The position numbers were made by a program, and so were the translations under genes. From positions 8,208,963-8,272,962 of the forward strand of contig OZ316893.1 in the NCBI GenBank assembly GCA_973895155.1: a DNA stretch of 64,000 bases. The letters run 5' to 3'. Shown here piece after piece: positions 20,280 to 49,637 of this stretch; position 1 is the first letter of the stretch; the number at the start of each line of letters is the position of its first letter. The notes beneath the pieces were generated by a model. It did no database searches. It worked only from the letters and a program-made list of their open reading frames with translations, and was not told the DNA's origin. This DNA is from Marsupella aquatica. Lineage: Eukaryota; Plantae; Marchantiophyta.

Positions 20280-23200
20280 TCATTCGTGTACGATGCAAAA
20301 CTGTTTCCTATCGAGTACGAACTCATTCGTGCCCGATATAGAAATTCTCCGATCGGATCTATCTGCGGTCAATGGCGTGAAGTATCTATCACTCCGAGCT
20401 CGAAGGTCTGCTTGCATTACCACATCCGAGGCAGATCCACCGCTGTTCAAATTGATATAAGACATACTCTTGCAACGCGAGTCCTGTGGCTCAGAGTACA
20501 AATCATATATGTTACCAATATCCTGAAAGTCATCCAAATCCGAGTCCGAATTGTAGGCATTAACACGGTTCGACGGAATTGGCGTTCTTGACTTATGCTT
20601 GAAAACTTTCCTCTCGAGCTTCCTGAATAGAAGAGAACGGCAAGACAGTTTTCGTCAGGTTCACCGCGATAGGATATCCGCGATCAGACATACTTCACAC
20701 TAACTTTTGTAGTAGAATACAAATGCAAGCAAGGCTCCTGGAGGTATGGAAAGTTCCATTTAATTGAGGCCGGTACTGTAAGAATGCAAGCTCACCTAAT
20801 GAGCCCGAAAACACCCTTGGCCACTCGGCTGATCTTGATCTTACGCTTCAGACCGCCTTTGCGTTCTTCAAGTCCCGTAGTTGTTTCGGTGTGCTCCTCC
20901 GCGGAATTTGGGTTGCCGAACCCAAGCTGTTGAATCTCTTCCTCGAGAATTCTTGCGGCAGTCAGCAACCAGTAGAACGGTCTAGCTGAAGCACTTTTGG
21001 CGGGTCGCTGTTGGGGTGCAAGACCCGAAAGTTTTTTCTCCGATGGTAAAGAATGCCTTTCGCTTCCCCCAATTATAGGTCTTCGCGGCCCTAATTCAAC
21101 TGAGCGACTTCGTGCATGTGAACTTCTTCCATGGACTCCATTATATGTCAATGAATACCGTTTGCTTCCTTGAGATCTCCCATTTGGCTCGCGGGACGCC
21201 GTCACTCTTGACGTACTGGGCAACGTGAAGATCGGCACGTTGTCTTCACTTTCAGACCTTTTGGACTGTGAATTCAACGGTTGACAATTCTCTTCCGAAA
21301 TGGACTGGGACACCAACCTCGGAAGACGGTTGTAATAATTAGTGTCGAGAGCCGATTTCTTTCGACGAGCTGTCATCGAATTACGTTTCACTTCCGCCTG
21401 CATTCTGATAATTCCAACCAAGTCAATGTCAATCGACAGCCCAGTGTCTGCTGATACTTACTAACACTAAGTTACTTACCCATGATTGAAAAAAATTAAC
21501 GAGCCCTTGCACAAATCAATCCTTCTACTTTCCTAATTCCAAAAAGCAAGTTGTCATCATTAAGGATTCTTTCTACACGTGGACCTACTTGATCTACAGT
21601 TCCTCTATGGTGACTTTGTGACTTTTTTCCAGTCTACGCCTATCGCGCCTAGAGGAACTTTGCCTGTAACGACAGTGTTAATAATGAGACCAACAAGTGT
21701 CCTAAGGCCACTTTGCATGACCTCAGCCCCACTGCCGAGGTGGGTCTCCCGAGCGTAATATCTTCCCAATTGGCTTTCCAAGTGAGTGTAACTCAACCCG
21801 GTCTGAAATACCACCCAGCTCGAGACTCATCGATCCTCCTTTATGAACTCTAAAAAATCCAGACAAGATCTTCCTACGCTGAGGATTGTGAGTTACCAAA
21901 CCAAAATAGGTTTTGAGACAATGGCCCTCTATGAATCTCAGGTAATTCTTTGGGGTTGAGGTGTAGGGCTAAAGTTGTATAAAGTGACCTTTAGACTCGT
22001 AGGTAATGGCATCCTACGTTTATGCCAAAAAATAACCACGTAAAACCGACAATGACAAGGACGGTGACCGACTGACCATGCCGACCATGAGGAAAGTTCT
22101 CAATTCCTATTTCAATGAGGTGTGAAGGTCTACTCGTAACCAATGTGACTGCCTACGAAGAGAAAGCTCACCCCATGTACTTGATGACCACCCCTTTATC
22201 GTCACTGATTGGAGACAGCGTGAGTAGATTCCAGAACGGAGACCCGTTTTTTTTATAGTTTAATATTGTTCCGCTGTAGGCCTCGCCCTTTTTCAGTGCC
22301 GTGCTGATCCGGGCAACCTCATTGGCATCGGTGTCTAGACCCTGCAGGAACCGACTGCCAACATTTTGAGCGTTAGCCACGATGAAAGTCTCTGTGAAAT
22401 TGTCAAAGCAGGTTTTCTTGACTACAGTTACGAAACATGGAAAAGCTCTACAAAACTTCGTACAATCTAAACAGCTGGGTACAAGTACAAAATTGTATGT
22501 CGGCAGAGGTCAACTGGTACTGGATGTCCAGGAAACTAACTAAATACTCTCAAAAATTAGTTCATCGGTATAATACACATCTGTATGGCAAAATTCTTCA
22601 AATTGTATACATGGCTACCATCTCCGATGGCACTAAATCGAAAGAATGAACAAATTGGACGACTACTAATCATATATACGAATGAATCATTCTGTTACAT
22701 CACTCATAAAGAATTACTCACCAGTTACGCCCTATGACTTCTTCTGGAGAGTAGCCCGTCATATCGAAGAAGCCTGCACTTGCAAACAGGACGGGCTTCT
22801 CTGGATCGATGACATCGCAAACCACAAAGGCGAGCTGAAACGAAGTGAGTGCGTCTTTGACATGTTTCAGAACTCCCGGAACTTTTTGACCATATGGCAG
22901 ACCGTCTGATACTGATGAGCAGGTCGAGGTGCGAGGAGTGGACTCTTGGGAAGAGTTCTTCAGCACCAGACTGGCCACTCCGTTGCCCCATTTAGCTGCT
23001 CGCTCCGAAATTGCTTCGTCCGACAATGAGTATCTCGAATTTTTCGACCCTATGCCAGCGGACCGGCTCGTCTTGAAGCTATCATGAGATAAAGAGTCCA
23101 GAGACCTAGCAGACCTCCTCATAACCGAGCGCCACTCAAATTCCGCCTTCGAGAATGTATCGTCAATTTGCTCGTGGGGCACTAACGAATGTTGTGCAAC

Positions 23201-23911
23201 CTGAGGGCCAGACTCTCTTCTACTGCCTCCATCGAGCGACTTTGAGCTCACTCCTCTAACCTTAGCAAAATTCAACCCTTGGACTATCATTTCATTCTCT
23301 TCCGTTCCCCTATCTGAACTTGATACCATTTGGGGTGAACTCATAGATTCATCCGGACCGGTCTCCGAAACATCAAGGGAGAACTCACTTGGCATCTCTG
23401 TGTCAATGCTGGCCAGCGCAGACGAGATTGGACTGCCCAATTCTGGTGGAGGTGACAACATAGATTTATGCCGAGTGGCGTAAGAATCGCTTACAGAGAA
23501 TTCATTTGGTGACACCTCTGGCTTGACCATGTCACCTTGGCCCGGCGATATCCTACTTTCCAATTCAGCTGGCAACTTGGACTCAGTCATTTGGGGCACT
23601 TCGCCAATAGGCGTTCGGTGCGGCGTCGGCACAAGCCCCGTTGGCTCCCCCTGGGCTTCTTCCCGTAGGATTTCATACAACGTTTTCCGTGGACCATGGT
23701 TACCTTTCGAATCTCGGGAAACGCGTTCCCTGACTTGCTGGAAATAGGACTCAGCAGCTTGAAGAGCATCCTGCGGAGGTGCAGATGACTCGGTCGACAG
23801 CGGCAGCGGTGCTCCAACCGAATCCAATTGTCTATTCTGCTTGGAGACGTCAGGGCTAGAAGAAGATGACTGTGGTTCAGGCTCCCGGCAGACAACAAAC
23901 GGTTTGCCCAT
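20280..23911 (-). CDS. Phototropin-derived single-LOV (LOV1-type) protein, paralog A, ~774 aa, no LOV2 or kinase
   Basis: Hand-built exons 23911-22722, 22354-22172, 21404-20796, 20622-20280. All introns are GT-AG and phase 2; total 2325 nt, open frame. Contains ERAAKWG, KDALTSFQLAFVVCD...FASAGFFDMTGYSPEEVIGRNC|RFLQG...[19 protein letters not shown]...KYMG|MQAEV, and ends KQFCIVHE*. Confidence 0.85.
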
Positions 23912-48200: not shown

Positions 48201-49637
48201 TGGACCAGAACTCCGAGCTGACGAGGACCAACCGAAACGAATGAGCCAGCGCTACTCCTTGACATCAAATCCGACGAGAAGTACTCGCAACAGCGCAGTT
48301 GAGGAGTTTCGACAGTCACATCGCTCGCGCAACAGCTCAGTTACGAGCTCTGCTGAAGACTTCCAGCACACACAACATCGGAGGGAGGCTGCTGCTGCGG
48401 CTTTGCAATTAAGAGAAATGGTGCTTAATGGTGGCAAGTCTTCGAGCTCTTTCGAGACCCCCGGGACGAGTACCAGAAGGGATTCCCAAAGCAGTGCAAG
48501 CAGTGAGAAGAGCAGGATGTCCATTAAAAGTGAAAAGAGCAAGACCAATCGTTTGACTTCACGAATTCTCCGTCTCTTTAGGTACTGCGCTTCTCTTCCG
48601 TTCAGTCCCTCTCAGTGGACTGCATATTTTATATTGATTTTGATCTACAACCAATAGATTCTAGTTGATCTTGAATGTTATGAGTGCGTTAGGTTTGCCT
48701 AGGACATTCCTTATGAATCAGTATACACTTTTCTCAAAAGTTACCTATGATGCGTTGATTTCTGGTTGATGGTCCACCGATAGAATAAACTACTGTTTTT
48801 TAAGCAAAGTCTACTTTTGATACTTTGGTTATAGTTAATGCTCCATTGAACTAATGTACAGATTTTACAGCCAAGGGAAGTTAGTGATAATACTTGGAAT
48901 TCTGGATTATGGTCCTAAAGCAATACGTAAGGGTCTTGTGTATACTGACACATTAATCTGCAGTCTAAACAACTATATATCGTGTCTATTTGTTACGTTT
49001 ACGTGAGGTTTCTTCATTGCTATGCTATTGGTCATAAATATGATCGACCTTTGTAGTGCATCTGTTAGGGCAAATACTCACGGACTCAAATTTTATCTTG
49101 GATGTTTGCAGGAGGGATTCAAAGGTATCGAAAGGGCGAATGGAAGAAATGACAAGAGGGAAAGACGTTGTGGAGCTTTCGGCCTCCGATGATGAGGAAG
49201 ATGACTTCGACGACAACTCAGCTCGGGGTTCAGAGGGTCGTCGCCATTCTTCTGTGGGTTCTTACTCAACCACATCACAAGCAAGGCTGGAGGCTCCCGT
49301 TGACGACCTTGCAGAGAGGCTGGCGCGTATGACCATGGGCGTCAACGGCGCAGGGCAACAGATGTCCTCAGCTAAACCCGCTTTTGATGGGAGCAAGCAG
49401 TTCTGTTTTGTGGAGTCTTCAGCTCCACCTGCCTATGATGGAAGCAAACAGCAATTTTGTATCGTCGAGCCCTCATCTTCATCTGCCTATGATGAGCACA
49501 AGCAACAGTTCGAGCCCCCATCTTCACCTGCCTACGATGTGAACAAGAAACAATTCTGTCTTGTCGAGCCCTCAGCTCCACCCCCACTGCCTTTTAATGG
49601 TTCCAACAAGCAACAATTCTGTATTGTACACACATGA
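45246..49637 (+). CDS. Phototropin-derived single-LOV (LOV1-type) protein, paralog B, ~759 aa, no LOV2 or kinase
   Basis: Hand-built exons 45246-46153, 46806-46988, 47919-48581, 49112-49637. All introns are GT-AG and phase 2; total 2280 nt, open frame. Contains ERAAQWGYGVVLK, IPVVSRDVKDALSSF...YASAGFTSMTGY...GKNC|RFLQG...[31 protein letters not shown]|MQAE, and ends KQQFCIVHT*. Confidence 0.87.

What the first reader, a model, noticed from the sequence alone, without database searches (positions are those of the whole stretch)
20280..49637. Two intact paralogous 'LOV1-only' phototropin-derived genes with no LOV2 or kinase: a candidate new blue-light sensor or adaptor family
Seen: both genes splice into uninterrupted ~760-775 aa frames with the same 4-exon architecture (all introns phase 2, a 183-nt LOV exon in both). 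They carry the phototropin pre-LOV1 motif ERAAxWG, the VKDALxxF A'alpha lead-in, a complete LOV domain, a Ser/Arg-rich linker and an acidic patch, then stop at a shared terminal motif. No LOV2, Jalpha or AGC-kinase sequence (second GRNCRFLQ, DLKPEN, GTEEYIAPE) is visible downstream of either gene. Known: phototropins are LOV1-LOV2-kinase, LLP/PLP proteins are LOV-LOV, ZTL/FKF1 are LOV-F-box-Kelch and neochromes are phy-phot fusions; none matches this architecture. Inference: the linkers are barely alignable, yet the frames are intact, the stop position is shared and short motifs are conserved. This argues for an old, selected gene family rather than decaying phot fragments. The proteins may be kinase-less photoreceptors, or LOV1-mediated dimerisation partners or modulators of PHOT.
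Basis: partly seen in the sequence, partly recalled or inferred. Interest (0 to 1): 0.92.

Follow-up and report, generated by a model that had tools for sequence, protein, structure and literature searches.

The report
Kinase-less phototropin offshoots of liverworts
These two intact genes belong to an old liverwort family cut down from the blue-light receptor phototropin, keeping one light-sensing domain but no kinase; the family is listed in databases, even on the sex chromosomes of the model liverwort Marchantia, and its proteins are likely slow-resetting light-gated adaptors, which is untested.

Summary
Gene A (minus strand, 774 aa) and gene B (plus strand, 759 aa) are head-to-head 4-exon genes, each with one phototropin-LOV1-type domain and no LOV2 or kinase. 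They are not decaying fragments: 24 relatives were fetched, the 23 named ones all from liverworts. A and B are old sister subfamilies, gene B exon 1 shows pN/pS 0.14, and 22 of 26 members end in a QFCIVH-type motif absent from phototropins. The family is not unknown. The Marchantia member is named MpLOVV, half of the sex-chromosome gene pair MpUg00050/MpVg00600, already tabulated across liverworts as 'LOV domain-containing protein'. Ten paper searches found no functional study and no account of it as a phototropin derivative. All 26 members keep the photoactive Cys and carry Ala at the oat-LOV2 N414 position; gene B also has Leu416. That pair slows engineered oat LOV2 from 43 s to about 60,000 s. 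Best reading: a slow-reverting blue-light sensor that signals through tail motifs (0.5). Rival: a modulator of phototropin (0.3). Photochemistry and partners are untested.

The parts
22722..23911 (-). Gene A exon 1: MGKPFV start, low-complexity N-terminus, ERAAKWG (23005-22985), first half of LOV from VKDAL (22861)
   Evidence: colinear with Calypogeia P0126
22172..22354 (-). Gene A exon 2 (183 nt): second half of LOV; the photoactive Cys397 codon is split by intron 1
   Evidence: Pfam PAS_9 E 5e-9
20796..21404 (-). Gene A exon 3: MQAE end of LOV, Ser/Arg-rich linker, KRYSL (21163-21149), basic-hydrophobic GVFGLIR segment
20280..20622 (-). Gene A exon 4: acidic patch (20549-20526), single terminal QFCIVH motif (20303-20286), stop
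45246..46153 (+). Gene B exon 1: MGKPFV start, RDSLDIFG and WDNALKEAE motifs resembling the liverwort phototropin N-terminus, ERAAQWG (45867-45887), first half of LOV with the A414/L416 signature
   Evidence: 13 synonymous and 6 non-synonymous differences to a related sequence
46806..46988 (+). Gene B exon 2 (183 nt): second half of LOV; Cys303 codon split by intron 1
   Evidence: best solved-structure match Arabidopsis phot2 LOV1, E 2.8e-24
47919..48581 (+). Gene B exon 3: MQAE, Ser/Arg/Pro-rich linker, QRYSL (48247-48261), RLTSRILRLFR basic-hydrophobic segment
49112..49637 (+). Gene B exon 4: acidic patch (49185-49214) and four copies of the QFC[FIL]V motif (49398, 49452, 49551, 49614), stop

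Best explanation
The two genes are intact members of a liverwort family that keeps only the N-terminal half of phototropin, and their proteins likely act as slow-resetting blue-light sensors that signal by binding partners rather than by a kinase. Shown: one complete LOV1-type domain, no LOV2, no kinase, old duplication into A and B, purifying selection, conserved short motifs. Inferred steps: (1) the LOV binds FMN and forms the Cys adduct in blue light. (2) Ala at position 414, with Leu416 in gene B, would make the lit state last minutes to hours, so the protein would integrate light dose, and probably temperature, rather than track it. (3) The lit state would change LOV surface contacts or dimer state. 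(4) Output would pass through motifs in the predicted disordered tail: RYSL as a likely phosphorylation site, a basic-hydrophobic segment as a likely membrane anchor, and QFCIVH as a likely docking motif for an unknown partner, multiplied four- to six-fold in some B proteins to raise avidity. Gene A, with Val416 and Val427, would likely reset faster than gene B.
For: Flavin-site residues are kept: Cys450 26 of 26, N482 and N492 26 of 26, Q454 and Q513 25 of 26, R451 24 of 26 (oat LOV2 numbering). An AlphaFold model of P0004 matches phot2 LOV1 at rmsd 0.8 A over 105 columns. Fixed changes against 24 phototropin LOV1 rows: 413 Q to L 25 of 26, 414 T to A 26 of 26, 418 S to C 24 of 26, 514 V to A 25 of 26; Leu416 in 16 of 26 against 0 of 24. 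In oat LOV2, N414A gives 1427 s against 80 s (PMC3903614, Table 1) and N414A/V416L 59,744 s against 43 s (PMC10751770, Table 1). The phototropin hinge motif after LOV1 is in 0 of 26 members, 8 of 8 liverwort phototropins and 87 of 107 phototropins. The tail motif is in the last 12 residues of 22 of 26 members, 0 of 253 other fetched proteins and 6 of 20,000 shuffled tails. Both models leave the tail unfolded and free. pN/pS is 0.14 in B exon 1, p 4e-5. The Marchantia pair is expressed in vegetative, female and sporophyte tissue (PMC8699743 Data S1A).
Against: No member has been tested for flavin binding or photocycle in anything I could read. The kinetic numbers come from another domain, and N414T, the residue normal phototropin LOV1 has, also slows oat LOV2 (892 s), so transfer is uncertain. 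Four of 26 members, all subfamily A, lack the tail motif. Radula A has lost N449, R451 and Q454 and Conocephalum R451. The Marchantia gene pair is absent from the Riccia and Ricciocarpos genomes (PMC11923412 Table 1), so it is dispensable in some lineages. No partner is identified.
Confidence: 0.5

Rival explanations
1. The proteins are modulators of the single liverwort phototropin. They would pair with it through LOV1 or the shared N-terminal motifs, be phosphorylated by it in trans, and damp or shift its response thresholds as a kinase-less decoy.
For: The N-terminal motifs best match liverwort phototropins: the top 7 of 107. The basic segment and acidic patch align weakly with the phototropin linker, E 0.003-0.05. 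Marchantia phototropin phosphorylates a kinase-inactive copy in trans through intermolecular contact, and this sets the cold-avoidance switch (PMC12812097 passages). Solved LOV1 structures are the nearest folds.
Against: The LOV has fixed changes at four positions and has lost the conserved hinge, which fits a new job better than mimicry. The most conserved tail motif is absent from all 107 phototropins, pointing to another partner. Riccia and Ricciocarpos lack the Marchantia gene pair although Ricciocarpos keeps phototropin.
Confidence: 0.3
2. The proteins are scaffolds whose LOV serves as a flavin-stabilised dimer or redox module, with light playing little part; selection acts on folding and on the linear motifs.
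For: Some members carry changes at flavin-site positions (Radula A, Conocephalum, Pellia C with Q513L). Most of the chain is predicted disordered, with scattered conserved motifs.
Against: The adduct-forming Cys is kept in 26 of 26 members, and the family-wide change falls on a position known to tune the photocycle. Q513L also occurs in 3 of 24 phototropin LOV1 rows.
Confidence: 0.15
3. The genes are decaying or mis-modelled phototropin fragments, or they splice on into LOV2 and kinase exons.
For: A and B linkers are only 26% identical. No RNA of this organism could be laid.
Against: No LOV2 or kinase sequence lies in the 20 kb and 14 kb downstream. Relatives from 14 named species have one LOV and no kinase, and most end at the same motif. 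pN/pS is 0.14, and the coding indels shown are in frame.
Confidence: 0.02

Closest known systems
MpLOVV / MpLOVU (MpVg00600 / MpUg00050) of Marchantia polymorpha
   Same: Same family: one LOV1-type domain 67% identical to each window LOV, the same diagnostic residues, the QFCIVH tail, and database isoforms that diverge at the sites of introns 1 and 3. One clade with the window genes, 100/99.
   Different: A sex-chromosome gametolog pair, whereas the window holds two linked paralogues 21.3 kb apart. It lies on another branch of the family in the tree, but AU tests do not settle orthology (p 0.19 and 0.29). Only a name, annotation, expression class and gene-tree entry were found; MpUg00050's own sequence was not fetched.
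Phototropin (liverwort PHOT; LOV1-LOV2-AGC kinase)
   Same: N-terminal GSLE(I/V)FG and DAL motifs, ERAAxWG, A'alpha, LOV1, basic segment and acidic patch, in the same order.
   Different: No LOV2, Jalpha or kinase; conserved post-LOV1 hinge lost in 26 of 26; four fixed LOV changes; new C-terminal motif. Li et al. 2015 (PMC4532919, passages) describe liverwort phototropin as single-copy; the passages seen do not mention this offshoot.
LLP/PLP (LOV/LOV, PAS/LOV) proteins
   Same: Plant LOV proteins without a catalytic domain; the tomato PLP acts by light-released inhibition of a partner enzyme (PMC10291033, title and start of abstract in a search listing), a possible working analogy.
   Different: Two PAS/LOV domains in a compact protein (recalled), against one LOV in a chain of about 600-850 residues that is mostly predicted disordered.
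ZTL/FKF1/LKP2
   Same: Single LOV; position 414 (ZTL G46, FKF1 A46 or S46) was selected to set their signalling (PMC5370183 passages).
   Different: No F-box or Kelch domain; the LOV is phototropin LOV1-type.

Membership tests
Phototropin | LOV1 domain with A'alpha lead-in | tested here: met
Phototropin | LOV2 and Jalpha | tested here: not met
   tblastn of three phototropins hits only the two single LOV domains; one NCRFLQ per protein
Phototropin | C-terminal AGC kinase | tested here: not met
Phototropin | Conserved hinge motif after LOV1 (RPNG..SLI.YD) | tested here: not met
   0 of 26 members; 87 of 107 phototropins
LOV photosensor domain | GxNCRFLQG with the adduct-forming Cys | tested here: met
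   GRNCRFLQG in A, GKNCRFLQG in B; Cys in 26 of 26
LOV photosensor domain | Flavin-contact residues R451, Q454, N482, N492, Q513 | tested here: met
   all present in A and B; R467 is Ser in A and Lys in B, but Ser also stands there in 8 of 24 LOV2 rows, the liverwort phototropins
LOV photosensor domain | PAS/LOV fold | tested here: met
   predicted for orthologues P0004 and P0001 at high pLDDT; Foldseek top hit phot2 LOV1
LOV photosensor domain | FMN binding and reversible photocycle | not testable with these tools
   needs spectroscopy
LLP/PLP | Two tandem PAS/LOV domains | tested here: not met
   one PAS stretch in each of 6 members scanned
ZTL/FKF1 | F-box and Kelch repeats | tested here: not met
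   no such Pfam match in 6 members or in the window exons
MpLOVU/MpLOVV family | Single LOV with L413/A414/C418/A514 and a QFCIVH tail | tested here: met
   this definition is mine, drawn from the alignment
MpLOVU/MpLOVV family | One clade apart from phototropin LOV1 | tested here: met
   100/99 in a 44-row tree; 0.995 in a LOV-only tree
MpLOVU/MpLOVV family | Direct orthology to the Marchantia gametologs | tested here: inconclusive
   separate branch in the free tree; alternatives not rejected, p-AU 0.19 and 0.29
MpLOVU/MpLOVV family | Location on a sex chromosome | not testable with these tools
   no whole genome is held for this window

The most novel reading that the evidence does not exclude
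Liverworts have a fourth class of plant LOV photoreceptor beside phototropin, ZTL/FKF1 and LLP. It arose when phototropin duplicated near the base of liverworts and lost LOV2 and the kinase, and was retuned into a minutes-to-hours light and temperature memory that signals through a new QFCIVH docking motif. [quoted passage not shown]
Probability: 0.35. Interest if true: 0.8.

Novelty: new variant of a known kind. Interest (0 to 1): 0.6.

Why it matters
Liverworts are used as the clean single-phototropin model, yet they carry a conserved phototropin offshoot with an intact-looking light-sensing site whose function I found untested. If it is photoactive, the plant blue-light receptor inventory is incomplete, and Marchantia phototropin results may include a hidden input. 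The test is direct, since the Marchantia genes are named and sex-linked, and each sex carries one. The natural A414/L416 LOV could also be a stable slow-cycling part for optogenetics, where the engineered equivalent aggregates.

Tried and rejected
No whole genome is held. No RNA holder was listed among 5 runs; this says nothing on expression. Idea that QFCIVH is a remnant of the first LOV2 strand (KNFVITD): it looks right by eye and by position, but the kinase strand HVCLIT scores as high or higher in most phototropins, profile alignment did not recover it, and local alignments of 20 tails were not above shuffles at that site (the last step of that script failed). Left open. Intramolecular packing of the tail on the LOV: not seen in two AlphaFold runs on a 24-row alignment, a weak test. 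Lipid attachment at the tail Cys: disfavoured, since two members have Val there and three extend past the motif. ESM Atlas search of the tail gave no usable hit. A tail-only homology search returned 7 known members and nothing new, with weak sensitivity. The tree does not fix the parent phototropin: the free tree puts Selaginella next to the family at 94/83, unstarred, and family plus liverwort phototropins is not rejected (p-AU 0.37). A and B as U and V gametologs: rejected, as they lie on one stretch of DNA and both occur with near-consecutive accession numbers on each of two Calypogeia contigs. Papers not held: Glantz 2016, Bowman 2017, Yamato 2007, Noguchi 2025. The gene-tree PDF of PMC8699743 is pictures only. 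Four look-ups of earlier scan findings gave nothing on this family.
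Full report
Observation. Both genes are as described. Gene A (minus strand, 23911 to 20280) gives 774 aa and gene B (plus strand, 45246 to 49637) 759 aa. Each has four exons, three phase-2 GT-AG introns and a 183-nt second exon. They face away from each other, 21.3 kb apart. Exon 2 of B matches phototropin LOV1 structures best (2z6d, E 2.8e-24), with LOV2 entries near 1e-12. Three full liverwort phototropins find no LOV2 or kinase DNA in the window. A and B share 67% identity in the LOV part and 26% after it.

The family. A search with B exon 1 among longer proteins returned 13 hits, all from liverworts and all with PAS families only. A profile search (477 hits, best 120 listed), a full scan of 1.84 billion representatives (best 150 listed) and cluster look-ups brought the set to 24 relatives aligned, from 14 named species of Jungermanniopsida and Marchantiopsida. 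Of the 284 proteins then held, a screen found the tail motif near the C-terminus only in these liverwort proteins. Members outside liverworts were not found, but both lists were cut and clusters can hide members. The closest relatives are from Scapania and Calypogeia, 77-78% identical to B outside the LOV, and Calypogeia for A, 50-60%. So the window is likely from a leafy liverwort. Scapania P0001 crosses all three junctions of B and ends at the same residue. That its accession series comes from 1KP transcriptomes catalogued by Glantz et al. 2016 is recalled; the paper was not held.

History. In a 44-row tree on 204 columns the family is one clade (100/99). A (96/96) and B (100/97) are sisters (97/92), and Pellia, Pallavicinia, Ptilidium, Radula and Calypogeia each have both. 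Two of the 26 members, second copies from the same or a close species, and two further Pellia sp. rows were left out of that tree. The Calypogeia A and B genes have accession numbers two apart on each of two contigs, so the linkage is likely conserved. A profile of nine family N-termini (B and Marchantiales) ranks seven liverwort phototropins first among 107, which favours a duplication in the liverwort line. The tree itself is not decisive.

Selection. Against a related sequence in run X3, B exon 1 has 13 synonymous and 6 non-synonymous differences, pN/pS 0.14, and one 15-nt in-frame deletion. For A only 40 of 252 difference rows were shown; the 32 in exons 3-4 change 29 codons, 14 silent and 15 not.

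What is already known. The M. polymorpha member is named MpLOVV (Mp_Vg00600). Iwasaki et al. 2021 (PMC8699743; passages and supplement 2 read) list MpUg00050/MpVg00600 as a gametolog pair annotated 'LOV domain-containing protein', expressed in vegetative, female and sporophyte tissue. They give orthologues in 24 of 27 liverwort rows, including Treubia, and class the Jungermanniopsida ones as outgroup to the U/V split. Their tree figure could not be read. My tree differs in splitting the Marchantiopsida rows, but their arrangement is not rejected. The pair is missing from Riccia and Ricciocarpos genomes (PMC11923412, section 15 part 1). In Blasia it lies on chromosome 9 and is marked pseudoautosomal (PMC13182070, one supplement row). 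Li et al. 2015 state that liverwort phototropin is single-copy (PMC4532919, passages). Ten searches found no functional study and no description as a phototropin derivative. Subscription papers are not covered, and Bowman 2017 and Yamato 2007 were not held.

Anatomy. AlphaFold models of two B orthologues fold only the LOV with confidence; the rest is low-confidence with short helices, and the tail motif is free. The flavin site is intact by sequence. The Ser at position 467 in gene A also occurs in liverwort phototropin LOV2. Family-wide changes against phototropin LOV1 fall at 413, 414, 418 and 514, and 16 of 26 members have Leu416. Numbering follows oat LOV2; it is recalled and agrees with the residue names in the two papers read. 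In oat LOV2, N414A and N414A/V416L slow dark recovery about 18-fold and over 1000-fold (PMC3903614 and PMC10751770, tables seen in passages). Gene B has A414, L416, I427; gene A has A414, V416, V427. That I427V speeds recovery is recalled; one search shows only I427T. Against a simple transfer, N414T also slows oat LOV2, and Thr is what normal LOV1 carries. Beyond the LOV the family lost the phototropin hinge motif (0 of 26) and keeps an xYS(L/S) site (25 of 26), a basic-hydrophobic segment (22 of 26 by pattern) and the QFCIVH-type end (22 of 26). The end motif is repeated 4 times in B and Scapania and 6 times in Calypogeia. Its origin from the first strand of LOV2 is attractive by position but was not above chance.

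Mechanism. Most likely (0.5), a slow-reverting flavin light sensor with no enzyme output passes its state to a partner bound through tail motifs. The rival (0.3) is a kinase-less partner and trans-substrate of phototropin, which is plausible because Marchantia phototropin phosphorylates a kinase-inactive copy in trans (PMC12812097, passages). A light-indifferent scaffold gets 0.15 and a relic 0.02. Everything past sequence, tree and selection is inference.

Verdict. Real, old and selected. It is catalogued and named in Marchantia through sex-chromosome work, but I found it neither recognised nor tested as a photoreceptor class. New variant of a known kind; interest 0.6.

Noticed in passing
window 222-716 (+): Single-exon plastocyanin gene with transit peptide (Pfam Copper-bind, E 6e-30).
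   Followed up: no
window about 57480-61500 (+): Multi-exon cytochrome P450 gene downstream of gene B.
   Followed up: no
window about 7500-16500 (+): Several long Ser/Pro/Arg-rich open frames, probably exons of one or two genes downstream of gene A, with no Pfam match.
   Followed up: no
window 40440-40976 (+) and 27268-27464: Frame that recalls the C-terminal end of a non-LTR retrotransposon protein (resemblance from memory; no Pfam match), with a degraded inverted copy near 27.3-27.5 kb.
   Followed up: partly
window 28362-35164: A 6.8 kb stretch between genes A and B bounded by nested inverted arms of 29-41 nt, 80-97% complementary, possibly a decayed DNA transposon.
   Followed up: no
window 42171-42468: Degenerate AT-rich minisatellite with 17, 31 and 34 nt spacing.
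   Followed up: no
proteins P0007, P0009, P0152: Pellia sp. has three family members: A, B and a third that groups with MpLOVV and carries Leu for the switch Gln.
   Followed up: partly
protein P0149: Radula subfamily A protein keeps the Cys but has lost three neighbouring flavin-site residues and the tail motif, perhaps a member turning light-blind.
   Followed up: no
proteins P0130, P0153: Conocephalum and Sphaerocarpos members end in QFVIIH without the Cys and form a long branch; they may represent the U-chromosome line.
   Followed up: partly
protein P0137: An exon-1-only subfamily B fragment from an unnamed source in which an N-terminal segment is repeated several times in tandem.
   Followed up: no
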